NCBI GenBank assembly: GCA_963755905.1 | Contig: CAVWLM010000002.1 | Location: 160,754-224,753 of the forward strand | Direction: 5' to 3' | Source of the DNA: an uncultured delta proteobacterium | GTDB lineage: Bacteria; Desulfobacterota; Binatia; Binatales; Binataceae | DNA length: 64,000 nucleotides | Part shown: piece by piece, positions 6,016 to 63,290 of the stretch | How positions within the stretch are numbered: the first letter of the stretch is position 1 | How the letters are laid out: each line of letters starts with the position of its first letter | Translations under genes and position numbers: made by a program | Notes under the pieces: model-generated | Seen by the model: the letters and a program-made list of their open reading frames with translations, nothing else | Told to the model about the DNA's origin: nothing | The model's database searches: none

Positions 6016-6131
6016 GACGCAGTCTTCCATTGAACTCGCGCGCCGCCAATGGGTCGCAAGCGCGGCCGCGCCGGGGTATGCTTTCGAGCGCGGAACACGT
6101 TATCGAATATCCAGAGGCGCAAACGATCACG

Positions 6132-7856: not shown

Positions 7857-7895
7857 TTTAGACCCCTGGATGGAGACGCTACAGGAGGAGCCCGA

Positions 7896-8621: not shown

Positions 8622-9223
8622 GTCCCCGGCTAACGCCCTCGCAAACTATCGGCCCGTTTTTTCATCGCGCGCTGATCCACGAAGGGTGGAACGACCTTGT
8701 CGCCCGCGGCGCGGTTGGCGAGCGCATCGTGATCGAGGGGCGCGTGCTCGACGGCGACGGCGCGCCGGTCACCGACGCAATGATCGAGGTATGGCAGGCG
8801 AACGCCGCGGGCCGTTACGATCATCCCGAAGACCTCGAGCGTGATGAGCCGCGCGAAAATGGACGCCCGCCAAGACCGCTCGATCCCAACTTCCACGGGT
8901 TCGGCCGCATCGCAACCGGTCCGGACGGCCGCTTTCGCCTGCGCACCATCAGGCCGGGGCCGGTGCCGGGCGGCGATGGCGCGCCGCAGGCGCCGCATAT
9001 CAACCTGTCCGTCTTCGCGCGTGGGCTCCTGAAGCGGCTCGTCACGCGGATATATTTTCCCGACGAGCCGCTAAATGGGGCCGATCCGCTGCTGAGCGAG
9101 CTACCTGCCGGTCGCCGGGCTACGCTGATCGCGCGCTTCGCGGAAAGCATCGGGGATGAGCGCACCCTGCATTTCGACATCGTGTTGCAGGGCGGCAACG
9201 AGACCGTGTTTCTCGACGTGTAA
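8618..9223 (+). CDS. pcaG: Protocatechuate 3,4-dioxygenase alpha subunit
   Basis: GRVLDGDGAPVTDAMIEVWQANAAGRY. ATGA overlap with pcaH. Confidence 0.9.
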   Translation: MSPRLTPSQTIGPFFHRALIHEGWNDLVARGAVGERIVIEGRVLDGDGAPVTDAMIEVWQANAAGRYDHPEDLERDEPRENGRPPRPLDPNFHGFGRIATGPDGRFRLRTIRPGPVPGGDGAPQAPHINLSVFARGLLKRLVTRIYFPDEPLNGADPLLSELPAGRRATLIARFAESIGDERTLHFDIVLQGGNETVFLDV

Positions 9224-9256
9224 AACGATGCGCTTGCAGTTTCGCGGGCAGAGCCG

Positions 9257-16902: not shown

Positions 16903-16908
16903 ACAACG

Positions 16909-17688
16909 ATGGTGGTCGCAGCTCTACAGATGCAGCCGGCCGGCTCGGTCGAGGCTAATCTCGCCAAGATAGACAAGGCCGCTAAATCGGCGGCTGCTTT
17001 TGGCGCGGAACTGCTGGTGACGCCGGAGACGGGCATTACCGGGTATGCCATCTGGGACAGGATTCCGCTGCTCGCCGAAGATCGGGAGGGACCTGTCCTT
17101 CAGAGCCTCGATAAAATGTCACGCACATACAATTTAGCGATCGTTGCGGGATTTCCCGAACGAGATCACGATGTCGTCTACAATACAGCCGTCATAGCAC
17201 AACCCGACGGAACCCGGAGCTTCTATCGCAAAAGTCATCTCTTCGGACCTCATGAAAAATCGGCGTTTGCCGCGGCCGGCGACCGTTCACCGATCGTGAG
17301 TTTCAATGGCATGCGAGCCGGCATGCTCATTTGCTACGACGTCGAGTTCCCTGAAATGGTGCGTTCCGCCGTCCTGGCGGGCGCGGAAATGCTGATGGTG
17401 CCTACGGCTTTACCCAAAGCCGCCCCGGCAAATCGTGTTTCGCGATCGATGATTCCCAGCAGGGCTTTGGAAAACCATATCTTTATAATCTATGCGGGCT
17501 TATGTGGAGAGGAAAACGGAACCAGCTATCAAGGTGGTTCGGTAATTGTCGGGCCCGACGGCGAAGATTTAGCCCGTGCGGGCGCCGCTGAGTCGCTTCT
17601 AATCACTGAGATTGACCGACTCAGTTCTGCATTTTTAAACCTAGATCCCTATCTGGATGATCGGCGCCCGACTCTCTATCGCCTATAG
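16909..17688 (+). CDS. Carbon-nitrogen hydrolase (nitrilase superfamily amidohydrolase)
   Basis: ELLVTPETG...ICYDVEFPE (E-K-C catalytic triad context). Confidence 0.85.
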   Translation: MVVAALQMQPAGSVEANLAKIDKAAKSAAAFGAELLVTPETGITGYAIWDRIPLLAEDREGPVLQSLDKMSRTYNLAIVAGFPERDHDVVYNTAVIAQPDGTRSFYRKSHLFGPHEKSAFAAAGDRSPIVSFNGMRAGMLICYDVEFPEMVRSAVLAGAEMLMVPTALPKAAPANRVSRSMIPSRALENHIFIIYAGLCGEENGTSYQGGSVIVGPDGEDLARAGAAESLLITEIDRLSSAFLNLDPYLDDRRPTLYRL

Positions 17689-33108: not shown

Positions 33109-33388
33109 AAGCGCGAACAGGCCTAATCCCCGGCGCAGTGAACAAGACGCTGCGTTACGATCCGTCGGTTGCGACGTGGCGCCGGATGGTCCGGCGTCAT
33201 GTCACGCTCGATGGCGTCGATTTGCGCTCGGCCGGCTTGAAGCGCGAATCGCATTGGAAGATTTGATAACCTGCTTTTCGGATTTGAGGATCGACAGGAG
33301 CCGCAACATTTCCTTCCGTCGAACACCTCATTTCGTGGGCCCCAGGAGCTTTGGGTCCGAGCTCGATCTGGGAATTGCAGGTAACGGC

Positions 33389-34247: not shown

Positions 34248-35432
34248 TTGACGTCGAGTTCGATGAGCGGCTACGAATCGGATGTTTTGAAAGTCAGCAA
34301 AGACATTCCGGAGCAATCGACCGGCTGCCATCGGAATTCGGAGCGATATTTCAAGCCCCTGATGTATCTGCTTGCCGCGTTGGCGGCATACGTGAGTGGG
34401 GCCAACATGCATTTGGGCTACGCCTATGCAGCGGATGCACCCGCGCAGGCTGGCCTGACCGTGCCCCAGGTCAATTCGCTACTGACCCCACCCGGTCGGG
34501 ACGGCGAGAAGGTCCCGATCCAGGTCGCGTTGGACGTTATCAATTTGTCCGACATAGATGAGGTCACTCAGCGTTTCAGGGTCGTAGCCTACCTGCTGGC
34601 TAAATGGACGGATCCCCGCCTCGCGTTCACTCCAAAGGCCGCATGGGAGAAATTTCGAGTTTATCACCCTGACGAAGTATGGACGCCGCATTTCGATTTC
34701 GCCAACGGCGTCGTGCCGCACTCCGCGTCTGACGTCACCCTGCGGGTCTTTCCCGATGGGACGGTCAAATATTTCGAACGTTCCAGCGCCGAGCTTTCCA
34801 ATAGTTTTCATCTTCGCCGTTTTCCATTCGATCGGCAGCGCCTGGAAATACTTATTCATCCGCCGCTCAGCGAAGCCGCGCTGGTACATTTCCTCGGCAC
34901 AGCCAATGGACCGTCGATTAGTGTGGAGAGACGAGTCTATTCGTCTCTGGCGGAATGGGCGATCGTAGGAATCCTGGCAAATGCCGAACTAATTCCCGTA
35001 TTCGGCACGGACACCACAAGCCAGATGCGATTCACAATCCAGGTCAAACGAAAGTTCAACTTCTATATATGGAAGGTATTCTTCCCCTTGCTACTCATGG
35101 TGCTCCTTTCGTGGACAGTCTTCTGGATCGACAGCTCGGAGCTAAGCAGTCAGGTTACTATCTCGGTCACGACGGTTCTCACCGTTATCGCCTTCGCATT
35201 TGCGATCTCGACCAACTTGCCGAAGGTTCCATACCTGACCTTTATCGACGTGTTTTTCTTGAGCTGCTACGTGTTTGTCTTTATCACAGCCATCGAACTC
35301 ACCCTGGTACACCTCGCCGGTCGGAGCAAACGCGACAAGATGGGAGAAGCTATTCGGCGCTTCAGCAGGATCGGCTTGCCCGTGCTATTCGTCCTCACCA
35401 ACCTGCTGACGATCGCGGTCTACTTCGGTTAG
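34248..35432 (+). CDS. Pentameric ligand-gated ion channel (prokaryotic Cys-loop receptor family)
   Basis: Extracellular LBD motifs (VINLSDIDEVTQRFRVVAYLLAKWTDPRL) followed by four TM helices. A probable signal peptide starts at M 34362. Confidence 0.75.
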   Translation: MTSSSMSGYESDVLKVSKDIPEQSTGCHRNSERYFKPLMYLLAALAAYVSGANMHLGYAYAADAPAQAGLTVPQVNSLLTPPGRDGEKVPIQVALDVINLSDIDEVTQRFRVVAYLLAKWTDPRLAFTPKAAWEKFRVYHPDEVWTPHFDFANGVVPHSASDVTLRVFPDGTVKYFERSSAELSNSFHLRRFPFDRQRLEILIHPPLSEAALVHFLGTANGPSISVERRVYSSLAEWAIVGILANAELIPVFGTDTTSQMRFTIQVKRKFNFYIWKVFFPLLLMVLLSWTVFWIDSSELSSQVTISVTTVLTVIAFAFAISTNLPKVPYLTFIDVFFLSCYVFVFITAIELTLVHLAGRSKRDKMGEAIRRFSRIGLPVLFVLTNLLTIAVYFG

Positions 35433-38470: not shown

Positions 38471-38539
38471 CGGCCTAAGCGGGCCATGATGTAACTTCGA
38501 CCATCGACGACGAGAGCAAGGAGGGTCCAGGAATGAAGA

Positions 38540-39399
38540 TTACGACGGTTGGTGGCGGCGCCATGGCGAACCCGGCTTTGACCGCGGTATTGGGACGCTT
38601 GCCAACTATCATCGATGCTAACGAGACGCTGCCGATCTTGCCCACGACGACCACCGTGGTGAGCGCCGCCAGCGCCAGCCAGTGCTTTCCCAGCAGTTAC
38701 GGATCGACGAGCATCCCGACCGAGACGAAAAAGATCGCGGCGAAAATGTCGCGCACCGGCTCGATCAAGTGCTCAACTTGCACTCCCTGTCCCGACTCGG
38801 CAACCAGCGAGCCGGCCAGAAATGCGCCGAGCGCGACCGTGTTAGCCCGCCCGTTCGGCGATCGTCGCGAAGGCGAAGCACAGCCCCAGGCTCGCAATCA
38901 AGAGCGCTTCCGGCCGATTGAACCGCGCGATCCCACGCACCACGAAAGGGACGGTGATCAATCCGACCGCAATCAGCACAACTACAAATGAACTCAGGAG
39001 GCCCGCGGTGATCGAGAACGCGTGAAGCGACTCTCTAGTCCCGTTAGACATAGTAATCAGCACCGCCAGCAGTAAGATCGCGACCACGTCCTCGCACAGC
39101 ACTATGCCGAAGACCAGCTCGCGCACGCTGGGGTCCACCTTCACCTCTTCGAAGGCCTTGGCCACGATGACGGCCCCGGAAATCGAGACCATCGCGCCAG
39201 TCAACAGGCTTTCCCACGGGGTCCAGCCCATCAGGCGCCCCACCAGATGGCCGAGCCAGACCATCGAAACGACCTGAACCACGGCGACCAATCCGGCGGT
39301 GGGAGCAAGGCGTATCAGCCGACTAAACCTGAACTCCAGGCCGATCGCGAAAACCAGCAGGATGACACCAAGATCCGAGACGAGCTGGACCCGTTCCAT
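38540..39399 (-). pseudogene. Decayed cation:proton antiporter (CPA2/Kef-type) remnant
   Basis: Kef-like TM segments (LVFAIGLEF..., AAIFFVSVGMLVDP | LLGKHWLALAAL...) are spread across three reading frames. The gene is truncated at both ends. Confidence 0.55.
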
Positions 39400-39439
39400 G
39401 TTGGCGTACACCCCGGGCACATGTGGCCCGACCACAATC

Positions 39440-39600
39440 CCGCATGGCCTACGGTATTCGTTCGCGTCTGCCCTGATCGCAGCAGGCAGGCGGGTCACCG
39501 AAGTGCAATCCATCCTCGGACATAGCTCTCCCGCAATCACGCCTGGGGGTTTATGCGCACTGGTTCCGAGCCACCAAACCACCGCGATGGATACCGTCGT
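39440..39600 (+). pseudogene. Tyrosine-recombinase (phage-type integrase) C-terminal remnant
   Basis: LRYSFASALIAAGRRVTEVQSILGHSSPAIT matches the integrase box II region. The catalytic Tyr context is degenerate and there is no intact upstream domain. Confidence 0.45.
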
Positions 39601-39735
39601 CCGGTCTCTTCTTTTCCCGGATTCGGCACGGAGGCAAAAAGTGGGCACTAGAACGACGACACCGGCCAACGTTCAACCTCCTAGCCGACTGCGCGCATCT
39701 CATAAACTTGCGAAATGACTGCGGAATTTTCAAGT

Positions 39736-39816
39736 TGCGAGAGGGGGGACTTGAACCCCCACGCCTTGCGGCACCGGATCCTAAGTCCGGCGCGTCTGCC
39801 ATTCCGCCACTCTCGC
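39736..39816 (-). tRNA. tRNA-Leu (anticodon UAG)
   Basis: Cloverleaf folded by hand: GCGAGAG acceptor, anticodon loop CTTAGGA, long variable arm, GGGGG-TTCAAGT-CCCCC T-arm. Closely resembles E. coli tRNA-Leu. Confidence 0.85.
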
Positions 39817-39857: not shown

Positions 39858-41390
39858 CTAGTTCGAGACAGCTTTGAATAGTACGGCAAGGTCATGCCGT
39901 ACAATCTTGCCCATTGCATTTTTGGGCAACGAGGAAGTGATCCGAATCACTTTCGGAACTTTGAAGTCGGCCAGGCGTGAGCGGCAGAAGGCTTCGATCT
40001 CGTTCTCGTTGGCGGAGCTTTTGAGTACTACCGCCGCCCATACCTCCTCGCCGTACTTAGTGTCCGAGACTCCAAAGACTGCCGCCTCGGCCACCGCGGG
40101 ATGCTCCAGCAGGACAGCTTCCACTTCCTTTGGTGAAATTTTTTCTCCGCCCCGGTTGATCATCTCCTTGATGCGTCCGGTCAGGCTGAGGTAGCCGGCA
40201 TTATCAAGAACTCCGATGTCGCCGGTGCGAAACCAGCCTTCGACAAAGGCGGCGGCATTAGCTTCGGGATTATCGCGATAGCCGTGCATCACGCTGGGGC
40301 CGCGGATGACCACTTCGCCCGCAGTGTTCGCGGGAAGCTGTTTGCCTGCTTCGTCGATGGTTGCGATCTCGACCCCTGTTGCGAGTCCAACGGTCCCGGA
40401 CTTATGCGGGTGGGGCGGGAGAGGATTGGAGGCCGCCTGATGCGCCGTCTCGGTCATCCCGTATGCTTCCAGCACCGGGGCGCCAAAGCGTTTCTCGAGA
40501 TTCGCAAGAACAACGGGCGCGAGCGCCGCGGAACAGGAGCGGATGAATCGCGGGCCATGATCTGGCGCGCCGTCGCCATCCGCCCGCAACAGAAGCACCT
40601 GATGAATGGTCGGCACTGCCGTAAACCAGGTGGCATGATGCTCGCGGAAAAGCGGCCAGAAACCTGAAGCGGCAAAACGTGGTGGCACGATCAGTGTGCC
40701 TCCCGAAGCCAGCGTGGACAACGCGGCCCCAATCAGCCCGTGGCCGTGAAAGAGCGGCATGACCACCAGGCTGCGATCTTCGGGCTGCAAGGCGTAGTGG
40801 GCGGCAATAGTTGTCGCCGAGCAAGAGACGTTGCGGTGTGTAAGCGGAACGCCTTTTGGCTGCCCCGTAGTACCACTGGTGTACATCAGCAGCGCTACAT
40901 CGTCAGGCTTCGGGGCTTCGGCGTTTAACCGCGAGGAAGCCGCCAGGTTTACCAGCTCCACGACCCCGGTAGGCGCCAGACGTGGCTGCCATACCGGCAG
41001 CGACAGGGCGGCTGCCGCTTCCGCCGCCCCGGAATCACTGTTTTCGGCAACGACCGCTTTGGCTTGTCCGGCGGCAATCAGATAGCGCAATTCGGCACCT
41101 TTGTTTGCCGGGTTTATCGGCGCCGCCACCAGCCGCGCCCGCGTCAGCGCGAGAAAGATGACCAGGAACTCGACGCCGTTCGGCAGTACCATCACGACCA
41201 CATCGCCAGCCTTGAGACCGGCGCCGACGAATTGCGACGCAAGTCTCTCAATCTGATCGGCCAGTGATTTGTAGCTGACGACGAGTCCGGGAGCCGGTGC
41301 TATGATTGCGGCCGCGGAAGACTCGGGTTCCGTCAGCAACTGCTCGAGAGTCGTGCGTAACTCCATACTCGGGTCGGGTTCCTCCTTCAA
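39858..41390 (-). CDS. AMP-dependent synthetase/ligase (acyl-CoA synthetase family)
   Basis: YTSGTTGQPKGV AMP-binding motif. Ends 4 nt downstream of oxc. Confidence 0.8.
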   Translation of the reverse strand: MKEEPDPSMELRTTLEQLLTEPESSAAAIIAPAPGLVVSYKSLADQIERLASQFVGAGLKAGDVVVMVLPNGVEFLVIFLALTRARLVAAPINPANKGAELRYLIAAGQAKAVVAENSDSGAAEAAAALSLPVWQPRLAPTGVVELVNLAASSRLNAEAPKPDDVALLMYTSGTTGQPKGVPLTHRNVSCSATTIAAHYALQPEDRSLVVMPLFHGHGLIGAALSTLASGGTLIVPPRFAASGFWPLFREHHATWFTAVPTIHQVLLLRADGDGAPDHGPRFIRSCSAALAPVVLANLEKRFGAPVLEAYGMTETAHQAASNPLPPHPHKSGTVGLATGVEIATIDEAGKQLPANTAGEVVIRGPSVMHGYRDNPEANAAAFVEGWFRTGDIGVLDNAGYLSLTGRIKEMINRGGEKISPKEVEAVLLEHPAVAEAAVFGVSDTKYGEEVWAAVVLKSSANENEIEAFCRSRLADFKVPKVIRITSSLPKNAMGKIVRHDLAVLFKAVSN

Positions 41391-41394
41391 TTAC

Positions 41395-43107
41395 TCACTT
41401 CTTCGATACGACGCCGCTTTTGGGGTTGAGATTGCCGATATGGCCGCTTTCCGTGCCCACTTTCGGATCGATTACACAATTGATCAGCGCGGGTTTGCCA
41501 GAAGCCAGCGCGTCGGCGAGAGCGTTGGTGAGATTCTGCGGATTATCGACGTAATGACCAATGCCGCCAAAGGCTTCGATGAGTTTTTCGTAGTGCGCCT
41601 GCTTCATCAGGATTGTCGGCGCCGGGTCGCTGTCGCCGCCACGATTGACATCGTCGCCGCGGTAAATCCCGCCATTGTTGAAGACGATAACGACGACCGG
41701 CAGTTGATAGCGGCAAATGGTTTCGATTTCCATGCCGCTAAAGCCAAAGGCGCTGTCGCCCTCGATAGCCACTACTGGCTCACCGCTTACAACCGCTGCC
41801 CCGATCGCGTAGCCCATTCCAATACCCATTACGCCCCATGTCCCACTGTCCAGGCGCTTGCGTGGCAGCCGCATGTCGATGACATTGCGCGCGATGTCGA
41901 GGGTGTTTGCACCCTCGTTGACAAGATAGACCTCCGGCTTGTCGGCAAGCACGCCACGGATGGCGTTAAGAGCGCTGTAGAAGCCCATCGGATGAGGATT
42001 GGCCGCGAGCAGGGTTTTCATGCGCTCCTGGTTGTGCCGTTTGCGCTGCGCAAGTTCCTCCAGCCATTTAGGGTCAGGCTTGATCCGCCCGGGTTTGAGC
42101 ACCGCCAAAAGACTAGCCATGCAGGATGCGATATCTCCCACCACCGGCGCGGCTATGGGACGATTGCTATCCATTTCGGCCGGCATGATATCAATTTGAA
42201 CGAATTGCGCCGCAGATGAGAATTGGGGACTGTTGCCATGATTGAGAAGCCAGTTCAGCCGCGCGCCAATCAGCATCACAAGGTCGGCCTCGGCGAGCGC
42301 GAAAGATCGAGCGGCCGCGGCGGACTGCGAATGATCATCGGCCAGCAATCCCTTGGCCATCGACATCGGAATGAAAGGGATTCCGGTCTTCTCGATAAAC
42401 GAGCGAATGTCCGTGTCCGCCTGGGCATACGCAGCCCCCTTGCCCAGAATGATCAGCGGCCGTTTGGCCTGTCCGAGCAGGTCCAGCGCCCGCTCGATCG
42501 AATCGGACGCCGGGATCTGTCGGGGCGCCGGGTCGATGACGCGCACCAACGACCGCGCAGCGGTCTCGGCGTCGAGGGTCGCGCCTAAGACACTAGCTGG
42601 AAGATCGAGATAGACGCCGCCTGGACGTCCGGAGACCGCGGCACGGATCGCGCGCGCGACACCAATTCCGATGTCCTCGGGCCGATTGATCCGGTATGCA
42701 GCCTTCGCATACGGCTTGGCCGCGTTCATCTGATCGAGCTCTTCATAGTCGCCCTGCTGGAGATCGACGATGGCCCGATCGCTCGACCCACTTATCTGGA
42801 TCATGGGGAAGCTGTTGGTGGTGGCGTTTGCCAGCGCCACCATGCCGTTAAGAAAGCCGGGAGCGGAGACGGTCAGGCAAATACCGGGTTTCTGAGTAAG
42901 GTAGCCGGCGATCGCCGCCGCGTTTCCCGCGGATTGTTCGTGACGAAAGCCGATATAGCGAATGCCCTCGGCCTGAGCCAGCCGGGCCAGGTCCGTTATC
43001 GGGATGCCCGCCACGCCAAAGATCGTATCCAGACCGTTTAGCTTCATGGCCTCGATCACCAGATGGAAGCCATCGGTGATCGAGGGGGAGTTCGTTTCGT
43101 TCGGCAT
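41395..43107 (-). CDS. oxc: Oxalyl-CoA decarboxylase (TPP-dependent)
   Basis: Near-colinear identity blocks with Oxalobacter Oxc: [85 protein letters not shown]. Confidence 0.9.
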   Translation of the reverse strand: [570 protein letters not shown]

Positions 43108-43223
43108 GTGAATCGCCCTCGTGATTATAGGAATTTCGCCGGTATGCGCCGCCAAAGAACTATCCGAGGCCGGTCGCGAGCCCGGCCCGTGCGCGAGACG
43201 GCCGCGGAGGATTTGGTCGGCGC

Positions 43224-44476
43224 TCAGACGACCTTGTCGTTGTGCATCCTGCCGATATCCTCGGTGCTGTATCCCAGATTTCTCAGCACCTCGTCCGTAT
43301 GCTCGCCCAGCAGCGGGGCGCCAGTGATCTCCGGTTTAAAGCTGGAAAACTTGATGGGGCTGCCGACCGTCAGATAGTTGCCGCGTTCCTCCTGCTGCAC
43401 CTCAACCACCGTACCGCTCGCGCGCAGGGCAGGATCGTTGTCGATTTCCTTCATCGATAGGACGGGCCGCACGGCACGCCGAACTTACGCAGGATGCTCG
43501 ACCGCTTCAAACTTGGTCTTGTCGGCGAGCAACTTTTCGATCTCGGCGAAAATCTCGAAGATGTGGGGCTGCCGCGCGCGAGGCAGTAGCGTAGGCGGGA
43601 TCGTTCGCCCATTGCGGCTTGCCTATCGCCTCGCAGGTCGGCCCCCAATTCTGTTCCTGAATCGTGAAATAGATGTAGGCGTTCGGATCCGTTTCCCAGC
43701 CCTTGCATTTGAGTATCCAGCCTGGCTGTCCGCCGCCGCCGGCGTTCCCGCCGCGCGGTACCACGTCGGTAAATTTCCCGTTCGGATACTGCGGATACTC
43801 TTCGAGGTAGCCGACGTGGTCCAAACGTTCCTGATCGCGCAACTTGACGCGGCACAGATTCAGCACCGCGTCCTGCATCGACACGGAGACTTTCTGGCCT
43901 TTGCCGGTCTTTTCGCGGCCGATCAGCGCGGTCAGGATGCCGATCGCCAGATGCATTCCGGTGTTGCTATCGCCAAGCGCCGCCGCGCTGACCGTCGGCG
44001 GGCCGTCCCAGAATCCAGTGGTCGAGGCGGCGCCGCCGGCGCACTGCGCCACGTTTTCGTAAACCTTGAGGTCCGCGTAAGGCGAGCCCTCGCTGAAGCC
44101 CTTGATCGAGCCGAAAATGATCCGTGGGTTGAGTTCCTGAATACGTTCCCAGGTGAAGCCCATCCGGTCCATCGCACCGGGCGCGAAATTCTCGACCAGG
44201 ACGTCGGCCTCGCGAATAAGCTTCTCCATGATCGCCTTGCCTTCCGCGGTCTTGGTATTCAGGGTCAGCGACTTCTTGTTGCTGTTGAGCATCGATGAAG
44301 TACAGCGCATCCAAATTGGGGACGTCCCGCAGTTGGCGGCGCGTAACATCTCCGACACCGGGCCGTTCGACTTTCAGCACTTCGGCGCCGAACCACGCCA
44401 ACAGTTGCGTACATGCCGGCCCGGCCTGCACGCCCGTGAAGTCAATCACTTTGATTCCCGCCAATGGCAGCGCCAT
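43224..44476 (-). pseudogene. frc: Formyl-CoA:oxalate CoA-transferase, interrupted by two single-nucleotide frameshifts
   Basis: Three consecutive ORFs in different frames are colinear with Frc: [41 protein letters not shown]...[24 protein letters not shown], and [25 protein letters not shown]. The shifts map near 44297 (+1) and 43485 (-1). Confidence 0.7.
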
Positions 44477-44713
44477 GCTCGAATGCTCCTCGCAACGTGC
44501 GAAATGGAAGTACAACCCTTCGGGCCGCTGGCCCGCTGATCCTGTCAGCCCTACGTTGCGCCTTGTTGGTCAGTCAATAGTGAGTTGTACCGACAGTAGG
44601 TGCATAAAAATTGCATGAATCTGTCTGGCACGCTAGAAGCGAAGTCGGCGGGCTATCGTGGTTCCAGGCAACTTTAAGATGGGGACGCCCAGCAGAACCA
44701 TGGCTGCCGAGGA

Positions 44714-45388
44714 TTGACGACGATGCCGCGCCCTGAGTTTTTCGGAAAGCTAGGTCTGTTCGTCGTCAGCGAGTTCCTGGATCTCGCGACTTGCGGGCGG
44801 CTCCGATCGGAGATACTCGAGGCCGCTTCGCGCAAAGGGAAAATTCTCGCAAAGACGCGCGAGTTCGAGGTTGACGACTCTATTCGCCGAGTGTTGTGCT
44901 CGGACGTTCCGAAGTCCACGGAGATCCTTGTCGAAGCACGGCTGGCACAACTGAAGCCGCAACTGGAAGAGCATTTTCAAACGTCATTGACCGGTTGCGA
45001 CGGTCCTTATTTTTTTAGGTATGGACCGGAGGACTTCTACAAACCGCATCGCGACGTCGTGCCCGATTCTCCCGCCGAGGTCGAAAACCGGCGAGTCTCA
45101 GTGATCGTCTTCCTGAACGCACAAGGCGAGGATTCGTCCGCCGAAGACTGCTATGGCGGAGGCGCTTTGACTTTCTACGGTCTGATCCAGGGCGCCCAGT
45201 GGGAGAACTGTGGGTTCCCGCTCGAGGCCACGCCCGGCCTGTTGGTCGCATTTCGTCCAGGCATTCTTCACGAGGTCAGCCCAGTCGCCTACGGTCAACG
45301 GTTCACGATCGCGGCGTGGTTCACCGGCGGATCGTCCGCGGAATTTCCGCGGAATCTTCCGCCGCCGGTCCACACGGCTCCGAATTGA
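44714..45388 (+). CDS. 2OG-Fe(II) oxygenase (prolyl 4-hydroxylase-like)
   Basis: HRD...VSVIVFLN...H spacing typical of P4Hc-type dioxygenases. Confidence 0.7.
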   Translation: MTTMPRPEFFGKLGLFVVSEFLDLATCGRLRSEILEAASRKGKILAKTREFEVDDSIRRVLCSDVPKSTEILVEARLAQLKPQLEEHFQTSLTGCDGPYFFRYGPEDFYKPHRDVVPDSPAEVENRRVSVIVFLNAQGEDSSAEDCYGGGALTFYGLIQGAQWENCGFPLEATPGLLVAFRPGILHEVSPVAYGQRFTIAAWFTGGSSAEFPRNLPPPVHTAPN

Positions 45389-45527: not shown

Positions 45528-48401
45528 TCAGGCGCCGAGTGGGAAGTTGCCGGCCGTGTGTATCGGACGCTGCCGCCCACTGTCGGTGGCTGTGCTTGGG
45601 TAAGGATCGATGGAACCCTGCGTCACGCGCAGGCGCTCACGGAGTTTGTCGGCGAGCCCGCGCACGTAAGGCTCGCGGAACATCGGCTGGCCGTGAAATC
45701 CCTCGACGTCGACGATTTCGAGGCCGCCGGCTGCGAGCTCACCCCATCCGAGCAATGGATCGGTCTCGTAGATCTCGCTAGACGGTTGCGCGGGCACTCG
45801 GAACAATGTGATCGGGCGCGGATAGGGGAGCGGATGATAGTGTCGCTTGGCCGCGAAAGCCACGTTAAGAAACGACAGGTACAGGCTTTCCTGCGAAACT
45901 GGACGCCCGGCTAGTCTGCGCCAGCAAGTATCCATTCGCCGCGCCCAAATCCTGAACATCTCGCGACGCATCTCGGACCATCGACGATCCGGCGGCTGTG
46001 GAAAAGGGTTGCCGAGGCGGCGAAACAGACGAAATCGCGCGGGCGCTTCGCGGCGGAGCCTCGGATATCCGGGTGCGCGCGTATCGAATAGAGCCAGCAG
46101 GCCAACTTCCTGTCCAGCTCGCACCAATTGTTGCGCGATCTCGAACGCCACGATACCTCCGTACGAGGATCCGCCGAGAAAATACGGTCCGCGAGGCTGT
46201 AGCGCTCGCATCTCTCGCACGAAGTACGCGGCGAGCGAATCCACCGTGCGTAGCGGCGGATGCTGGCCGTCCTGTCCCGGCGGCTGCAAGCCATAAAAAG
46301 GCTGATCGAGCCCCAGATGACGCGGCAGTTCGGAGAGCGAGAGCACGTCGGTGCCGGCGCCCGCCGCGCAAAAGAACCCGGGCCGGTCGCCGTGCGGTTG
46401 CAGTGCCACAATCGCTGGCCACGCCGGCGACCAACTCGCGTCGCGCAGGACCTCGGCCTGTCGCGCCACGTTCGGAGCCTCGAGCAATAGCGAAATCGGC
46501 AGCCGGCGTCCGCAGACGCTTTCGATCCTGCCGACCAACTCCAGAGCGAGAATCGAGTCTCCCCCGAGCTCGAAGAAGTCGTCGCGGACGCCGACCGGCT
46601 GAAGCTTGAGCACGTCTTCCCATATCGCCGCCAGGCATAACTCGAGGCGGTCGCGCGGCGGATGCGCGCCGGAACGCGCCGGCTCCGGATTGGGCAGCGC
46701 GTCGCGGTCGACCTTTCCATTGGATGTGAGCGGTAGAGAATCGACGCACACGAACACCGAAGGGACCATCGAGGCTGGGAGCGTGCGCCCAAGCTGGCCG
46801 CGCAGCGCCGCGGGCGAGGCCGAGCCCACCACGTAGGCCACCAGACGAGTTTCCCCCCAACGGTCGGGCCGGCCTACTACCGCGGCCTCGCGAATTTCGG
46901 GATTCGTCAGCAGCGCCGCTTCGACCTCGGCGGTCTCGACTGATTGACCGCGGACCTTCACCATCGATTCGCGCCGGCCCAGATGGACTAGACATCCGTC
47001 GGGCAGGATCATTCCGCGGTCGCCTGTGCGGAACATCCGCCTCCCGTCGGGACAGGTCGAGAGCGCGGCGGCAGTGAGTTCGGGATTGTGCCAATACCCG
47101 CAGAAAAGATAGTCGCTCCTGATCGCGAGGTCGCCCGCGCGGCCATCTGTCAGCTCGCGGCCTTCTTCGTCCAGCACGACGATTTCCGTATCCGCCAATT
47201 CATAGCCGACCGGAATTACCGATCCGTCGAACGTGGAAGCCTCGTCGATGAAGAACATTCGGATGCTGTTCATTTCAGTGGCGCCGAGGCTCGCGCACAA
47301 AATGCTCGTCCTGGGCAGATGTCGGCGGAAAAGCTCGACATCTCTGAGCGTGGTCGCCTCGCCGCCCAGCTTGACCAGGCGCAGAGACGGCATCGACGCA
47401 TCTTCCGGCAGCGAAGCCACGAGGCGCCTGAATACCGTCGGCACCGAATGGTAGAGCGTAATTTCTTCGCTTGCGATCCAGGAGCCCAGGTCGGCGAATC
47501 CCCGCGCACGCAGATCGAAAGGATGCAACGAGGCGCCGTTCAGCAGCGCGCCGAAGATATCCGACACCGAGGCCCCGACCTCGTACACAGGCAGCAGGGC
47601 ATGACGGTCGGTGGCGTCGAGGTGCACGCCGTTGGTGTACTTCATAATGTTGTGCAGGACGTTGCGATGACTCTGCACGACACCCTTGGGTTTCCCCGTG
47701 GATCCCGAGGTGTAGAGGATGTACGCGATCGCGCCGGGCGAAATTGGCAGGCCGAGGTTTTCTGTGGAGAGCCGGTTTCCGATTCCGTCGATTGAAATGA
47801 TCGTGATAGGGCCGGCCTCTTCCGGAGGAATTCCGGTCGATTCGTGCGCAATCTCCCGCGCTGTCGCGGCGTTGAGATCGTTGGTGAGGATCGTTTCGGC
47901 GCCGCAATCCTTCAGGATAGCGGCGAGCCGTGCGGCCGGATGGGCCGAGCTCATCGGGACGTAGCATCGCCCGGCCTTGAGCACACCGAGCATCGCGGCT
48001 ATCTCCGGCGCTCCGTGTTCGAACAGGAGCGCGACAGGGGTGCCGTTTGACGATCGCGCATCTGATAGCAAGGCGCGGCCGATACAATTCGCCCGGGCGT
48101 TCAGCTCGCCGTAGCTCCATTCATGTGCGCTGTCGCGAATTGCCAGTGCGCCCGCCCGCCGCGCCACCTGGTCCTCGAAGCGGGCGGCGATCGATTGCTC
48201 GACCGCGCTCCGGTCGAAAGGCGTGAACGCATTGCACGGCCCTGGGCATCGACGCGCATGTGCGCGCGAAGGGTCGGCTGTGGCTCGCAAGGAATCGGCA
48301 GTGGCTTCGGATGAATCGAGCATGTTTGGCGAAGCAGGGCCGCGAAGATTGGCCTTCGCTTGCAGTAAAATAGCCGTTTCCCTTAGCAGTGCAAGCGACA
48401 A
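45528..48401 (-). CDS. Single-module non-ribosomal peptide synthetase (A-PCP-TE)
   Basis: Adenylation core motifs (YTSGSTGKPKGV), PCP motif DDFFELGGDSILAL, C-terminal thioesterase GGSSYGG. Confidence 0.8.
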   Translation of the reverse strand: MSLALLRETAILLQAKANLRGPASPNMLDSSEATADSLRATADPSRAHARRCPGPCNAFTPFDRSAVEQSIAARFEDQVARRAGALAIRDSAHEWSYGELNARANCIGRALLSDARSSNGTPVALLFEHGAPEIAAMLGVLKAGRCYVPMSSAHPAARLAAILKDCGAETILTNDLNAATAREIAHESTGIPPEEAGPITIISIDGIGNRLSTENLGLPISPGAIAYILYTSGSTGKPKGVVQSHRNVLHNIMKYTNGVHLDATDRHALLPVYEVGASVSDIFGALLNGASLHPFDLRARGFADLGSWIASEEITLYHSVPTVFRRLVASLPEDASMPSLRLVKLGGEATTLRDVELFRRHLPRTSILCASLGATEMNSIRMFFIDEASTFDGSVIPVGYELADTEIVVLDEEGRELTDGRAGDLAIRSDYLFCGYWHNPELTAAALSTCPDGRRMFRTGDRGMILPDGCLVHLGRRESMVKVRGQSVETAEVEAALLTNPEIREAAVVGRPDRWGETRLVAYVVGSASPAALRGQLGRTLPASMVPSVFVCVDSLPLTSNGKVDRDALPNPEPARSGAHPPRDRLELCLAAIWEDVLKLQPVGVRDDFFELGGDSILALELVGRIESVCGRRLPISLLLEAPNVARQAEVLRDASWSPAWPAIVALQPHGDRPGFFCAAGAGTDVLSLSELPRHLGLDQPFYGLQPPGQDGQHPPLRTVDSLAAYFVREMRALQPRGPYFLGGSSYGGIVAFEIAQQLVRAGQEVGLLALFDTRAPGYPRLRREAPARFRLFRRLGNPFPQPPDRRWSEMRREMFRIWARRMDTCWRRLAGRPVSQESLYLSFLNVAFAAKRHYHPLPYPRPITLFRVPAQPSSEIYETDPLLGWGELAAGGLEIVDVEGFHGQPMFREPYVRGLADKLRERLRVTQGSIDPYPSTATDSGRQRPIHTAGNFPLGA

Positions 48402-52451: not shown

Positions 52452-52563
52452 AAACGCACGAGTCGCCCCGCAAACTTGACTTGTACAGAGAGCCCTAAGT
52501 ATAAATCGAGGGCTTGTATTTGTTTCGATCGGCGCGGAGTGAAACGTTCTGCGGGAGGAGCGG

Positions 52564-53772
52564 ATGGTAACGGGTTTACGGCGGCGACTATTTAGACTGG
52601 CCCCATTGTTTCTCCTGCTGAGCGGGCCCGCTTTCGCTCAGGTCCCCAGCACCCCGACTCTTCAGTTTCCATACACCCAGCCTCCCGCCGAGGGCGTTGG
52701 CGTCAGCAAGATGCCCGCGCCTAATCCGCACTGGGTGATAGTCAACGCTCCGCTTTACGGCAATTTCATCGTATCGCAGGTTTACGTGATCGACGGCGAT
52801 TCGAGAAAAATTCTCGGCATGCTGACGACCGGAATGATCGCGACGGTGGCCCTGTCGCCCGACCATAGCCGCATTTTCACCGGCGACACGTTTTTCTCGC
52901 GTGGTACGCGCGGCAGCCGCACCGACGTCATAACCGTTTACGACACCTCCAACCTCGAGCCGGTGGGTGAGATCGTAATTCCCCCGAAACGTCAGCTTGC
53001 TGCCCCCGACAATTTGCAGCTCAGCGCAACCTCCGACGGACACCTGTTGCTGGTCGCCAATATGACGCCTGCGACCTCGGTGACCGTGATCGATATCGCG
53101 TCGTCCAAGGTGCTAGGCGAGATCCCGATAACCGGATGCGCGGAATTTCAGCTTACCGGCAACCGGCAATTCGCCTCACTGTGCGGCGACGGATCGCTCA
53201 TGGTGACGAACTTCGACGACACGGGTAAATTGCTCACTCAAAAGCGCAGCCCCGTGTTCTTCGAACCCGAGAAGGACCCGGTCTACGGCGCGCCGGCGAT
53301 TATCAAGAGCGAGAACTACTACGTGACCTATCACGGAGTTGTGCATCCGGTTGACCTCTCGACCGATCCGCCGACTCCGGGCACGACGTGGTCCTTGACT
53401 ACCGACCAGGAGCGAGAGGCGGGATGGAGACCGGGCGGCAGCCAGCCAATCTGGGGACATGCCTCGGACGGTCTCCTCTATGCCCTGATGCATCAGGGCG
53501 GCGAGTGGACGCATAAGCAGGCCGGTAACGAGATCTGGGTTTTCAACGCGAAGGACGGCAAGCGAACCGAGCGCCTGTCGCTTCCCGAACCGGCGGCCGC
53601 GATTTTCGTAACGCCTGATGACAAGCCGCTGATTTTCGCCGCGACGCCCACCGACGTCCTGCAAATGGGAGCGCCGCCGTGGTCGCTCCAGATATTGTCG
53701 GCGGAAAGCGGCAGGTACCTGGGCAAAGTCGACCAGTTGGGAGGTATCCCGTCCAACATGTTCGGCCTGTAA
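52564..53772 (+). CDS. TTQ-dependent amine dehydrogenase heavy (large, beta-propeller) subunit
   Basis: Signal peptide, then blocks colinear with MauB (EAGWRPGGSQPIWGH, GEWTHKQAGNEIWVFNAKDGKRT). Confidence 0.75.
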   Translation: MVTGLRRRLFRLAPLFLLLSGPAFAQVPSTPTLQFPYTQPPAEGVGVSKMPAPNPHWVIVNAPLYGNFIVSQVYVIDGDSRKILGMLTTGMIATVALSPDHSRIFTGDTFFSRGTRGSRTDVITVYDTSNLEPVGEIVIPPKRQLAAPDNLQLSATSDGHLLLVANMTPATSVTVIDIASSKVLGEIPITGCAEFQLTGNRQFASLCGDGSLMVTNFDDTGKLLTQKRSPVFFEPEKDPVYGAPAIIKSENYYVTYHGVVHPVDLSTDPPTPGTTWSLTTDQEREAGWRPGGSQPIWGHASDGLLYALMHQGGEWTHKQAGNEIWVFNAKDGKRTERLSLPEPAAAIFVTPDDKPLIFAATPTDVLQMGAPPWSLQILSAESGRYLGKVDQLGGIPSNMFGL

Positions 53773-61007: not shown

Positions 61008-61631
61008 CTACTCTTCGAACGCCTTGTTGAAGCCGTAGCCGACCATCTGCGCGTGAAAGCCGGCGACGTCGTGCGAGAGAATCAGGAGGTCGCTTTTCTT
61101 GCCGGAGCGATCTTTCACATGGTCGCGCAGCAGCGCTTCGGGCCGGAATCCCATGCTCTGAAAAGTGGAGATCGCTCCTTTTTGATCGACCGTCATCTGG
61201 GCGATCATCTTTTCGATCCCCTGTCCCAGAGCGATCGCAAAGGCCTCCTGGGTAAGCAAGCGGCCCAATCCCTTGCCGCGCATCTTCGGCGAAACCAGGA
61301 CGCGAAGCTCCGCCACGTGGGGTGACCACGAGAGTTCTCCGCGGTCGACGGTGGCGTAGCCGACGACCGTGCCGTCGTGCTCGGCGAGGATGCTGCTGAT
61401 GCGTCCGCGTTCGATTCCATTGAGCCACACGTCGATCGCTTCCGGCCTGGTGATATCGCGGCGCAGGAATAGAAGATCGTGCTCGGGAAGCGAGCGGGCG
61501 AACGACAGCGCGTTCTCCCGATCGGCGTCGGTCATTTTGCGCAGGTTGACGGCGAAGCCGTTCAGGGAAACCTCGCGAGGGTACCTGCGCGGAGTTTCGC
61601 CCTTGTCATGTGTCGCAGTGTTTTGCGTCAT
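61008..61631 (-). CDS. GNAT-family N-acetyltransferase
   Basis: RGKGLGRLLTQEA is acetyl-CoA-binding motif A. The ATG overlaps the phaC stop (ATGA). Confidence 0.7.
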   Translation of the reverse strand: MTQNTATHDKGETPRRYPREVSLNGFAVNLRKMTDADRENALSFARSLPEHDLLFLRRDITRPEAIDVWLNGIERGRISSILAEHDGTVVGYATVDRGELSWSPHVAELRVLVSPKMRGKGLGRLLTQEAFAIALGQGIEKMIAQMTVDQKGAISTFQSMGFRPEALLRDHVKDRSGKKSDLLILSHDVAGFHAQMVGYGFNKAFEE

Positions 61632-62713
61632 ATGGATCGCTCCGAAAGCCAGCGGTCGACCGCGGGCCACAGCCGGTTTTTCGCGTTAGGCCCCGCCAAT
61701 ACGCTCACGTGTCCGCCCTTCAATACGATCTCTTCCTTATCCTTGCTGCCTACCAGCGAAAGCAGATCCTTCGCCGATTCCAACGGCACTATATGGTCGT
61801 GTTCGGCCATGACCGCCAGAAGGGGCACGCGCACCGTGTCGAGTTTCACCGCGCGCCCCCGCAGGACCATCTGGCCGTCGTAAAGTTTGTTCTCCCATAG
61901 AACTTCCTTGTGGTACTGGCGGAAGCACTCGCCGGCGAACGGGATCTGATCGTTCGCCCAGCGATCGATCATGCGGTACGACTTCACGAAGGCATCGTTC
62001 CAGATGTTGTCCCACAGGCGGATTTGCGAGGCGATCTTCGCTGCCGGCTTCAACATATCGAAGGCGCTGATGAGCATTTCGGGTGGGACGTTGCCCAGCG
62101 TATCGACGATTCGATCCACGTCGAAGTAGCGAGGGTCGGTCCATTGGCGGAACATCTTCATCCCGGTGGAATCGATGGGCGTCGTCAGGCAAATGAGGTT
62201 TTTCAAGGGCCCGTCGGGATGCGCCGCCGCGTACATCAGCGACAGTTGTCCTCCCATGCAGTAGCCGAAAACGGAAAGGTCCGGCTCGCCGCTGTCGGCG
62301 CCGATTCGCCTGATGCATTCGGGGAGGAAATCCAGCACGTAGTTCTCGATTCGGAGCCGGGAGTCTTCCGGCCGCGGCACGCCCCAGTCGATCATGTAGA
62401 CGTCGTAGCCTTGCTTGAGCAGGAACTCGACCAGGCTCTGGCTGGGAGCGAGGTCGAAAATGTATGGCTTGCACAACAGCGACATCACGAGAACCACGGG
62501 CACCCGATAGACCTCGGAAGCGAGCGGCCGGTAGTGGTACAACCTGAGCGTGCCGCTGGAGTAAATCGCGTCTTTGGGGGTCAAGCCGGTCGGCGGATCG
62601 CTTGTCGTGAAATAATTGAGCCCCTTGATGTTCCGAAGGAATGCCCGTTCGACTTCGGCTCGAACCTGATCGGCTACCGTCGGGGTTTCGGACTGCTGAG
62701 TGGCAGTGCTCAT
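61628..62713 (-). CDS. phaC: Class III poly(3-hydroxyalkanoate) synthase, catalytic subunit
   Basis: About 360 aa. Lipase-box GYCMGG (G-x-C-x-G) and VLVMSLLCKPYIFDL. Confidence 0.85.
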   Translation of the reverse strand: MSTATQQSETPTVADQVRAEVERAFLRNIKGLNYFTTSDPPTGLTPKDAIYSSGTLRLYHYRPLASEVYRVPVVLVMSLLCKPYIFDLAPSQSLVEFLLKQGYDVYMIDWGVPRPEDSRLRIENYVLDFLPECIRRIGADSGEPDLSVFGYCMGGQLSLMYAAAHPDGPLKNLICLTTPIDSTGMKMFRQWTDPRYFDVDRIVDTLGNVPPEMLISAFDMLKPAAKIASQIRLWDNIWNDAFVKSYRMIDRWANDQIPFAGECFRQYHKEVLWENKLYDGQMVLRGRAVKLDTVRVPLLAVMAEHDHIVPLESAKDLLSLVGSKDKEEIVLKGGHVSVLAGPNAKNRLWPAVDRWLSERSI

Positions 62714-63123
62714 GATTTTTCACCCGCTGGTTTTTTGGTACGTGGAGGCCGAGGAGTTGAATCCGCCGCCTCGCCCGCGCCGTCTTTCCCGCCGAATGAC
62801 CGCACGGTGGCGGCTTCAATCGCCGCCAGTCGTTCCTCGATAGCGGTCAGGCGGCCGCCAAGTTCGAGGACGTCGCTGCGCGTCGGCAGATTGAGCGAGG
62901 TGAGGTACCGCTCCACCGTCTCTCCCAGCTTCTTTTGCATCTGCATGAAGAGGTTGGTGAATTGGCCAAGGAACCGGCCGAACTGGTCGGTCCCCATCAC
63001 TCCGTTGAGGAAGCTGTTCCATTGGCGCTCGGATTCGTTGAGCCACTCGCGCCAGGAGGAGAAAGGATCAGAACCAGGGTTCCGCTGCTGTTCGGCCACG
63101 CTCGTTCCCTCCTCTGTATTCAA
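62710..63123 (-). CDS. Short PhaE-like subunit of class III PHA synthase (putative)
   Basis: 137 aa. LNLPTRSDVLEL matches the conserved PhaE C-terminal motif LNLPTRSEVDE. Translationally coupled to phaC. Confidence 0.5.
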   Translation of the reverse strand: MNTEEGTSVAEQQRNPGSDPFSSWREWLNESERQWNSFLNGVMGTDQFGRFLGQFTNLFMQMQKKLGETVERYLTSLNLPTRSDVLELGGRLTAIEERLAAIEAATVRSFGGKDGAGEAADSTPRPPRTKKPAGEKS

Positions 63124-63290
63124 GACGCCTAGTCGCGTTTCGCGCTTGAGTCAAACGAGTCGGAAGTAGCGATCGCGACAAACGGCTGGAACTGGCTTCG
63201 CGGGCGCTTCCGCCGGGTTGACGCTACCGTCTATCTTCGCAAAATATTCTGCACTACCCTCTCGGGTGGAATCGGCTGAAGGAGATCGCG

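What the first reader, a model, noticed from the sequence alone, without database searches (positions are those of the whole stretch)
39858..44476. Oxalate operon with intact oxc, a doubly frameshifted frc, and a co-transcribed AMP-ligase
The locus reads frc-oxc-ligase on the minus strand. Oxalyl-CoA decarboxylase is intact and highly conserved. Formyl-CoA transferase is split across three frames by two single-nucleotide indels. The acyl-CoA synthetase immediately downstream could supply oxalyl-CoA in an ATP-dependent way (AAE3-type oxalate-CoA ligase logic), making Frc dispensable. Alternatively the indels are assembly errors.
Basis: seen in the sequence. Interest (0 to 1): 0.55.

Follow-up and report, generated by a model that had tools for sequence, protein, structure and literature searches.

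The report
Oxalate operon; frc breaks likely artefacts
This is an ordinary bacterial oxalate-breakdown operon (frc, oxc and a plant-type oxalate-CoA ligase), and the "broken" frc gene is most probably an assembly error, because near-identical strains carry it intact.

Summary
The minus strand of 39858-44476 does read frc-oxc-ligase. Oxc is a full oxalyl-CoA decarboxylase, above the curated cut-offs. The ligase is a close relative of the plant and yeast oxalate-CoA ligases: 50% identical to AtAAE3, with the oxalate-contacting Ser, His and Lys conserved. Its homologues sit next to oxc in several phyla.

frc is interrupted by four single-base indels, not two: +1 at 44295, 43584 and 43494, and -1 at 43467/8.

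Contigs 98.9-99.5% identical to the window (L001, L003), and a more distant relative (L167), carry an intact 416-aa frc in the same operon. The window's frc has no private substitution. Once the four bases are corrected it has no stop codon, and dN/dS against the other alleles is 0.16-0.20. Three of the four lesions coincide in position with anomalies in a second megabase-size contig (L002). The inserted bases look like merges of two alleles.

The best reading is a consensus artefact in a strain-variable region (about 0.8). frc, oxc and ligase occur together with frc intact in many lineages. The ligase therefore most likely primes or tops up the Frc/Oxc cycle rather than replacing Frc. Interest is low.

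The parts
43224..44476 (-). [quoted passage not shown] It is 416 codons long once four single-base indels are corrected. As written in the window it is split into five segments in three frames.
   Evidence: Pieces match TIGR03253/NF003809 at profile positions 2-62, 61-305 and 336-416. Alignment to intact 416-aa alleles in L001, L003 and L167.
44295..44295 (-). Lesion 1: one extra base in codon 61. The gene strand reads TTC ATCG ATG. The intact alleles have ACG or ACC (Thr, 72 of 72 relatives). L002 has ATC at the same spot.
43584..43584 (-). Lesion 2: one extra base in codon 298. The gene strand reads ACT GCCT CGC. Known alleles have CCT or GCT. GCCT is the shortest string that contains both.
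43494..43494 (-). Lesion 3: one extra base in codon 327. The gene strand reads GAG CATC CTG. Intact alleles have CAC, and the commonest codon in relatives is ATC. The identical insertion is present in contig L002.
43467..43468 (-). Lesion 4: one missing base in codon 336. The gene strand reads TGC G-G CCC. Intact alleles have GCG (Ala). L002 is anomalous at the same codon (GGA).
41395..43107 (-). oxc, oxalyl-CoA decarboxylase (thiamine-diphosphate enzyme), 570 aa, intact.
   Evidence: NF006721 995.6 bits (cut-off 557) and TIGR03254 972 bits (cut-off 739.4). The exact protein is also encoded on L001.
39858..41366 (-). AAE3/Pcs60-type acyl-CoA synthetase, predicted oxalate-CoA ligase, 502 aa. 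It starts 28 nt after the oxc stop codon (4 nt if the TTG at 41390 is used).
   Evidence: PDB best hits are the oxalate-CoA ligases 5ie0, 6qjz and 8aff. It is 50% identical to AtAAE3, with H214, H216, C288, S289, M314, H319 and K500 conserved. The exact protein is found on five other contigs. Homologues are named 'oxalate---CoA ligase' by JGI.
39736..39816 (-). tRNA-Leu (anticodon TAG), 41 nt downstream of the ligase. It marks the end of the cluster. Three short-read contigs of related strains break at or inside it.
44477..44722 (.). Intergenic region between frc and a divergently transcribed 2OG-Fe(II) oxygenase gene. It is the presumed promoter region of the operon. No known RNA family was found in it.
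   Evidence: the promoter scan was not informative

Best explanation
The locus is a working three-gene oxalate catabolic operon.

- The ligase makes oxalyl-CoA from oxalate, ATP and CoA.
- Frc passes the CoA from formyl-CoA to a new oxalate, releasing formate.

Frc and Oxc therefore form an ATP-free cycle. The ligase most likely starts that cycle and refills it when thioester is lost.

The four single-base indels that break frc in this window are most probably consensus errors of a long-read-type metagenome assembly, not mutations in the organism. They lie in the one stretch where co-occurring strains differ strongly.

What is shown:
- the gene identities
- the conservation of the oxalate-contacting residues
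- the conserved linkage of the ligase to oxc
- intact frc in near-identical strains
- the anatomy of the lesions

What is inferred:
- the technical origin of the indels
- the priming role of the ligase
- co-transcription of the three genes
For: 1. Intact frc in close relatives. Three independent assemblies carry an intact 416-aa frc followed by oxc and the ligase. L001 is a MEGAHIT contig, 98.9% identical to the window. L003 is 99.5% identical. L167 is 86% identical. Against L167, the only indels inside the three coding regions are the same four frc positions.

2. No private substitutions. Among the 114 variable frc sites, the window matches L003 at 89 and L002 at 25. It is never alone. It has three private indels and one shared with L002.

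3. No sign of decay. With the four bases corrected, the window allele has no stop codon. dN/dS is 0.16-0.20 against the intact alleles and 0.13 against L002. It has four residues not seen in the other relatives compared (about 50 full-length Frc), two of them shared with the intact L001/L003 alleles; seven intact relatives have 2-12.

4. A second contig broken at the same spots. L002 is a 1.76-Mb contig of the same species. Its frc is also broken and its oxc is split by its own indel. It shares the exact insertion at 43494 and is anomalous at the same codons 61 and 336. Yet its frc differs from the window's at 7% of sites with dN/dS 0.13. Shared descent from a dead gene does not fit that.

5. 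Insertion bias and hybrid strings. Seven of the eight distinct indel events in the two contigs are +1 insertions. ATCG, GCCT and CATC are each the shortest string containing two natural codon variants at that site.

6. A local hot spot of strain variation. 25 of 80 mismatches to L003 and about 85 of 136 to L002 lie in frc.

7. A split by assembly type. The window and L002 also share a T-run length at 33313 that differs from L003 and from the MEGAHIT contig L168.

8. Ligase identity.

9. Frc and ligase together is a common design. frc, oxc and the ligase co-occur with intact frc in L011, L089, L092-94, L127, L132, L164 and L167.

10. Experimental support for the priming logic. E. coli Nissle carrying oxlT, oxc and frc did not degrade oxalate until a yeast oxalyl-CoA synthetase was added (PMC8899768).
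Against: - No reads could be examined. The sequencing platform of the window is inferred only from the megabase contig sizes reported in the look-ups.
- The rest of the window looks clean. There are two other private indels in about 20 kb, and Pfam domain coverage is complete in nearly all of the roughly 30 other ORFs tested. A cluster of four frameshifts in one gene is also what a real pseudogene looks like.
- A second contig with a broken frc could be read as parallel loss.
- No intact protein identical to any of eight repaired versions of the window allele exists in the 15-billion-sequence collection.
- The co-location of the lesions with allele-variable sites is only marginally significant (P = 0.053).
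- A true pseudogene, the Na+/H+ exchanger, lies 200 nt downstream, so this lineage does tolerate dead genes.
- Ligase-oxc pairs without a nearby frc exist (L007, L009, L010, L012 and mycobacteria). Frc can therefore be dispensable in principle.
Confidence: 0.8

Rival explanations
1. frc is a real, very recent pseudogene in this strain, and independently in the L002 strain. It is tolerated because the ATP-dependent oxalate-CoA ligase supplies oxalyl-CoA, as in plants, yeast and mycobacteria.
For: - The indels cluster in frc while neighbouring genes are clean (P = 1.6e-4).
- L002 also has a broken frc.
- Ligase-oxc pairs without an adjacent frc exist in other genomes.
- A genuine pseudogene lies next door.
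- No intact copy of this exact allele was found.
Against: - frc is intact in strains 98.9-99.5% identical to the window.
- The window allele has zero private substitutions against three to four indels.
- There is no nonsense codon, and the repaired protein has four residues not seen in the other relatives compared (seven intact relatives have 2-12).
- dN/dS is 0.13-0.20.
- Seven of eight indel events are insertions, contrary to the usual deletional bias (my own knowledge).
- The lesions coincide in position in two contigs whose frc alleles are 7% apart.
- The hybrid codon strings fit a merge of alleles.
Confidence: 0.12
2. The ligase is an ordinary fatty-acid or malonyl-CoA synthetase that merely lies next to oxc and has no role in oxalate metabolism.
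For: - The best NCBIfam model is named 'FadD7 family fatty acid--CoA ligase' (517 bits), followed by long-chain-fatty-acid and malonyl-CoA models.
- Two pocket residues differ from the plant enzyme (V215G and A313G). This could widen the pocket.
Against: - The score is below the FadD7 cut-off of 650.
- PDB oxalate-CoA ligases score 361-459 bits, against 245 for malonyl-CoA synthetase and 225 for FadD13.
- Ser289 and His319, reported as specific to oxalyl-CoA synthetases (PMC8905533), are conserved.
- All 16 oxc-adjacent bacterial homologues have the HGH/CS/GM/H signature. Most non-adjacent paralogues lack it.
- The mycobacterial FadD7-type genes themselves lie next to oxc (L016, L018, L023).
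Confidence: 0.08
3. frc is expressed through programmed frameshifting or another recoding mechanism.
For: None beyond the presence of frameshifts.
Against: - It would need four separate shifts, in both directions.
- There are no slippery-sequence patterns at the sites.
- All relatives encode Frc in a single frame.
Confidence: 0.01

Closest known systems
Oxalobacter formigenes / E. coli type frc-oxc oxalate pathway (Frc EC 2.8.3.16, Oxc EC 4.1.1.8)
   Same: The same two enzymes, both matching the equivalog models. They are adjacent on one strand. The cycle is the same: oxalyl-CoA is decarboxylated to formyl-CoA, which recharges oxalate.
   Different: Here a third gene for an ATP-dependent oxalate-CoA ligase follows oxc. 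No OxlT-type antiporter gene is adjacent. As written in this window, frc carries four indels, which I judge to be artefacts.
Plant and yeast CoA-dependent oxalate pathway (AtAAE3, LsOCS, ScPcs60 followed by OXC)
   Same: The ligase is 50% identical to AtAAE3. It conserves the residues that contact oxalate and is followed functionally by Oxc.
   Different: In the plant pathway described in the literature read here, formyl-CoA is handled by a formyl-CoA hydrolase and no Frc is part of it (PMC9090294). Here Frc is present. The bacterial clade has Gly in place of Val215 and Ala313.
SYNB8802 synthetic operon scaaE3-oxdC-frc in E. coli Nissle (PMC8899768)
   Same: The same three activities in one transcription unit. 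The experiment shows that Frc plus Oxc need a ligase to get started in a naive host.
   Different: It is engineered, with a yeast ligase and Oxalobacter genes. The natural cluster here has the order frc-oxc-ligase and its own bacterial ligase.
Mycobacterial oxc / FadD7-type ligase pair
   Same: Ligase homologues (44% identical, signature HGH/CS/GM/H) lie divergently next to oxc in Mycobacterium aquaticum, Mycolicibacterium brisbanense and Mycobacterium sp. (L016, L018, L023).
   Different: No frc lies within 6 kb in those loci. The window ligase scores below the FadD7 equivalog cut-off (517 against 650), so it is a related clade and not that family.

Membership tests
Formyl-CoA transferase (Frc; TIGR03253 / NF003809) | Full-length match to the family model above the curated cut-off | tested here: met
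   The middle piece alone scores 462.9 bits on NF003809 (cut-off 442). The three pieces together cover profile positions 2-62, 61-305 and 336-416.
Formyl-CoA transferase (Frc; TIGR03253 / NF003809) | A single uninterrupted reading frame of about 416 codons | tested here: not met
   The window has four 1-nt indels. The frame is uninterrupted in L001, L003 and L167.
Formyl-CoA transferase (Frc; TIGR03253 / NF003809) | Catalytic Asp in the GDSNTG motif and the GGGGQ glycine loop (residue roles recalled from the O. formigenes structures, not checked here) | tested here: met
   The translation contains [11 protein letters not shown] and [10 protein letters not shown].
Oxalyl-CoA decarboxylase (TIGR03254 / NF006721) | Equivalog model score above the cut-off over the full length | tested here: met
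   995.6 bits (cut-off 557) and 972 bits (cut-off 739.4), covering profile positions 8-572 of 574.
Oxalate-CoA ligase (AAE3 / Pcs60 type, EC 6.2.1.8) | Closer to characterised oxalate-CoA ligases than to any other characterised acyl-CoA synthetase | tested here: met
   5ie0 scores 459 bits, 6qjz 453 and 8aff 361. The next, malonyl-CoA synthetase, scores 245. The ligase is 50% identical to AtAAE3 over 464 residues.
Oxalate-CoA ligase (AAE3 / Pcs60 type, EC 6.2.1.8) | Oxalate-contacting residues Ser289, His319 and Lys500 (AtAAE3 numbering; PMC8905533) | tested here: met
   All three are conserved, as are His214, His216, Cys288 and Met314. Val215 and Ala313 are replaced by Gly. The same signature is found in all 16 oxc-adjacent bacterial homologues.
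Oxalate-CoA ligase (AAE3 / Pcs60 type, EC 6.2.1.8) | ATP-dependent formation of oxalyl-CoA with a preference for oxalate | not testable with these tools
   This needs an enzyme assay.
FadD7 family fatty acid-CoA ligase (NF004511, equivalog) | Score at or above the curated cut-off of 650 bits | tested here: not met
   517.4 bits. The ligase is related to this family but is not a member of the equivalog.

The most novel reading that the evidence does not exclude
The frc lesions are real. Within one soil species, some strains (the window and L002) are losing the CoA-transferase and relying on the ATP-dependent AAE3-type ligase plus Oxc. Sister strains (L001, L003) keep the ATP-free Frc cycle. That would be a replacement of one oxalate-activation strategy by another, caught in progress.
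Probability: 0.1. Interest if true: 0.5.

Novelty: new member of a known kind. Interest (0 to 1): 0.15.

Why it matters
There are two practical points.

First, the case shows how a strain-variable gene in a megabase metagenome contig can look like a pseudogene. Anyone counting "lost" frc genes in such assemblies would be misled.

Second, it adds to the evidence that bacteria widely pair Oxc, and often Frc as well, with an AAE3/Pcs60-type oxalate-CoA ligase. The pairing is visible in annotation pipelines: JGI names the homologues oxalate-CoA ligase. Two recent papers on bacterial oxalotrophy (one a comprehensive review) that I searched do not mention a ligase. I found no paper on a bacterial enzyme of this type, or one linking mycobacterial FadD7 to oxalate.

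If confirmed by assay, the ligase would explain how the Frc/Oxc cycle gets its first CoA thioester. That gap was noticed experimentally when the pathway was moved into E. coli (PMC8899768).

Tried and rejected
- Exact look-ups with the longest ORF forms of Oxc and the ligase found nothing. They worked once the ATG starts were used.
- A look-up of the window-specific 2OG oxygenase variant, meant to find the window's own source contig, found nothing. The >1 Mb contig that the look-ups count as carrying the window's exact proteins was never returned. The source and platform therefore remain inferred.
- The JGI metagenome scan with the repaired Frc gave nothing closer than 90% identity. It did supply synteny examples.
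- An exact look-up of eight repaired versions of the window Frc found none in the collection.
- The genome-contig scan found no relative of the ligase above 65% identity, so the organism is not identified. The nearest named ligases are from Candidatus Binatus and Binataceae at 66-68%.
- A test for other split genes in the window by Pfam coverage of ten overlapping ORF pairs found none. All were separate complete genes. Uniformly poor consensus quality is therefore rejected as the cause.
- Rfam found only the two tRNAs. The promoter and terminator scan gave counts no higher than in shuffled sequence.
- A GCATC-type methylation motif at the lesions was considered. It is present at only two of the four sites, so I did not pursue it.
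- Programmed frameshifting was rejected (four shifts, in both directions).
- Two-block recombination between the L003-type and L002-type alleles was rejected as the origin of the window allele, because the two kinds of site are interleaved.


Full report
**What is in the sequence**

On the minus strand the window reads frc (43224-44476), oxc (41395-43107) and an AMP-forming ligase (39858-41366). A tRNA-Leu(TAG) follows at 39736-39816.

Oxc matches both curated oxalyl-CoA decarboxylase equivalog models far above their cut-offs: 995.6 bits against 557, and 972 against 739.4.

The three frc ORF pieces match the formyl-CoA transferase models at profile positions 2-62, 61-305 and 336-416. Positions 305-336 are missing from these pieces. 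Reading the DNA and aligning it to intact alleles shows four single-base lesions rather than two:
- an extra base at 44295
- an extra base at 43584
- an extra base at 43494
- a missing base at 43467/8

The last two cancel in frame, but they enclose 26 nt containing a TAA.

**Near-identical sequences from elsewhere**

Exact-protein look-ups found contigs that are 98.9-100% identical to this part of the window.
- L001 is a MEGAHIT contig. L003 is a 22-kb JGI contig. Both carry an intact 416-aa frc followed by the identical oxc and ligase.
- L167 is a more distant relative (86% DNA identity, Frc 96%) with the same three genes, all intact.
- Across the three coding regions, the only indels between the window and L167 are the same four frc positions.
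- L002 is a 1.76-Mb contig of the same species. Its frc is also broken, and its oxc is split by its own one-base insertion at 42515.

**Are the lesions mutations or errors?**

Arguments for a real pseudogene:
- The lesions cluster. Four of six window-private indels in 21.5 kb fall in frc (P = 1.6e-4).
- The rest of the window looks sound by Pfam domain coverage.
- A second contig shows a broken frc.
- A genuine pseudogene lies just downstream.

Arguments against a real pseudogene:
- Of 114 variable frc sites, the window agrees with L003 at 89 and with L002 at 25. It is never alone. The allele therefore has three private indels, one shared indel and no private substitution.
- Deleting the three extra bases and filling the gap gives a 416-codon frame with no stop. 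dN/dS is 0.16-0.20 against the intact alleles and 0.13 against L002. Only four residues are not seen in the other relatives compared (about 50 full-length Frc sequences), two of them shared with the intact L001/L003 alleles; seven intact relatives have 2-12.
- Seven of the eight distinct indel events in the window and L002 are +1 insertions.
- The inserted strings ATCG (codon 61), GCCT (codon 298) and CATC (codon 327) are each the shortest string that contains two natural codon variants at that site. The pairs are ACG with ATC, CCT with GCT, and CAC with ATC.
- L002 shares the identical insertion at 43494. It is also anomalous at codons 61 and 336, where relatives are invariant or nearly invariant. 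Yet its frc differs from the window's at 7% of sites, with a signature of purifying selection. A frameshift inherited from a common dead ancestor does not fit that.
- The window and L002 also share a T-run length at 33313 that differs from L003 and from the MEGAHIT contig L168.

frc is the local hot spot of strain polymorphism. It holds 25 of the 80 mismatches to L003 and about 85 of the 136 to L002. A consensus built from mixed strains is expected to fail in exactly such a place.

I conclude, at about 0.8, that the lesions are technical. The exact cause is unresolved: collapse of co-occurring alleles, or position-specific long-read error. The co-location with polymorphic sites is by itself only marginal (P = 0.053). 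No reads were available.

**The ligase**

- Its best solved relatives are the three structurally characterised oxalate-CoA ligases: AtAAE3 at 459 bits, Lathyrus OCS at 453 and yeast Pcs60 at 361. Malonyl-CoA synthetase follows at 245.
- It is 50% identical to AtAAE3 over 464 residues.
- The AtAAE3 oxalate pocket is formed by Val215-His216, Cys288-Ser289, Ala313-Met314, His319 and Lys500. Ser289 and His319 are reported as specific to oxalyl-CoA synthetases (PMC8905533).
- The window protein keeps His216, Cys288, Ser289, Met314, His319 and Lys500. It has Gly at positions 215 and 313.
- In 86 homologues taken from the fetched loci, all 16 that lie next to oxc show the same signature, HGH/CS/GM/H. 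Most paralogues not next to oxc have HVF/AA/GM/S or similar.
- The oxc-linked set spans MAGs labelled Deltaproteobacteria and Proteobacteria, soil metagenome contigs, and three mycobacterial genomes in which the FadD7-type gene lies divergently beside oxc.
- The window protein scores 517 bits on the FadD7 equivalog model, below its cut-off of 650. It is a related clade, not that family.
- JGI already names many homologues 'oxalate---CoA ligase', and NCBI names one 'oxalate--CoA ligase-like'.

**How the operon most likely works**

frc, oxc and the ligase occur together, with frc intact, in L001, L003, L167, L011, L089, L092-94, L127, L132 and L164. The ligase is therefore a regular partner of Frc, not a substitute for it.

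Frc needs a CoA thioester donor before the cycle can run. In E. coli Nissle, oxlT, oxc and frc gave no oxalate degradation until a yeast oxalyl-CoA synthetase was added (PMC8899768).

The inferred mechanism is that the ligase spends ATP to make the first oxalyl-CoA and to replace lost thioester. Frc and Oxc then turn over oxalate without ATP.

Ligase-oxc pairs without a nearby frc also exist (L007, L009, L010, L012 and mycobacteria). A ligase-only route is therefore biologically plausible. This is why the pseudogene reading keeps a probability of about 0.1.

**Comparison with what is known, and novelty**

Both enzyme routes are known: Frc/Oxc in bacteria, and AAE3/OXC in plants and yeast. The natural combination in one bacterial operon corresponds to the engineered SYNB8802 design.

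I found no paper describing a bacterial oxalate-CoA ligase or linking FadD7 to oxalate. Two papers on bacterial oxalotrophy do not mention a ligase. Annotation pipelines already make the assignment.

The locus is a new member of a known kind. Its one striking feature, the broken frc, is most likely not real. Interest is low.

**Limits**

- The organism is unidentified. No genome in the species-representative collection has a ligase above 65% identity, and the nearest named ones are Candidatus Binatus/Binataceae.
- Co-transcription is inferred from the gaps of 116 nt and 28 nt. The promoter and terminator scan was uninformative.

Noticed in passing
window 38475-39669 (-): A remnant of a Na+/H+ exchanger (CPA-type) gene. 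An in-frame stop is shared by the window, L002 and L003. The N-terminus looks truncated. Each of the three contigs also has one private 1-nt indel (38843 in the window, 39454 in L002, 39277 in L003). It looks like a genuine pseudogene, and is a useful contrast to frc.
   Followed up: partly
window 44723-45388 (+), indel at 45344: The 2OG-Fe(II) oxygenase gene divergent from frc has a window-private 1-nt deletion that changes its C-terminus (about 221-224 aa). L001, L002 and L003 encode 249 aa. It lies in a stretch where L001 is highly divergent, and is probably another consensus error.
   Followed up: partly
window 42515-44465 compared with L002: L002 differs from the window almost only in a 1.95-kb tract covering frc and the 5' third of oxc (dS about 0.23, against about 0.3% divergence in the flanks). 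The tract is bounded at both ends by L002 indels. It is either a recombination import or a haplotype switch in the assembly.
   Followed up: partly
window 33313: The length of a T-run (TT against TTT) in an intergenic region separates the two megabase-type contigs (window, L002) from L003 and the MEGAHIT contig L168. The +T at 43494 shows the same split. This hints at a platform-specific error.
   Followed up: partly
window 39736-39816 (tRNA-Leu TAG): Three short-read contigs of related strains end at or inside this tRNA gene: L001 at 39736, L005 at 39791 and L006 at 39790. This suggests a strain-variable junction next to the tRNA, perhaps an integration site.
   Followed up: no
window ~34263-35432 (+): A 389-aa bacterial homologue of pentameric ligand-gated ion channels (Neur_chan_LBD plus Neur_chan_memb), conserved in L002, L003 and L168.
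   Followed up: no
window 45528-48401 (-): A stand-alone NRPS-like gene (adenylation domain, carrier domain, thioesterase) two genes upstream of the oxalate operon. Its called length differs between contigs (879 aa in L001, 821 aa in L002).
   Followed up: no
window 6018-10612 (+): An aromatic-degradation cluster: a TPP enzyme, protocatechuate 3,4-dioxygenase beta and alpha subunits, and a 3-carboxymuconate cycloisomerase-type lyase. The window also holds at least five luciferase-like monooxygenase genes.
   Followed up: no
window 15505-17688 (+): An amino-acid permease gene and a nitrilase/CN-hydrolase-like gene lie in a stretch of lower G+C (0.55, against about 0.62 elsewhere). It may be acquired DNA.
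   Followed up: no
window 61628-63150 (-), 52543-53772 (+): A class III PHA synthase gene pair (PhaC-like and PhaE-like), and a protein resembling the methylamine dehydrogenase heavy chain.
   Followed up: no
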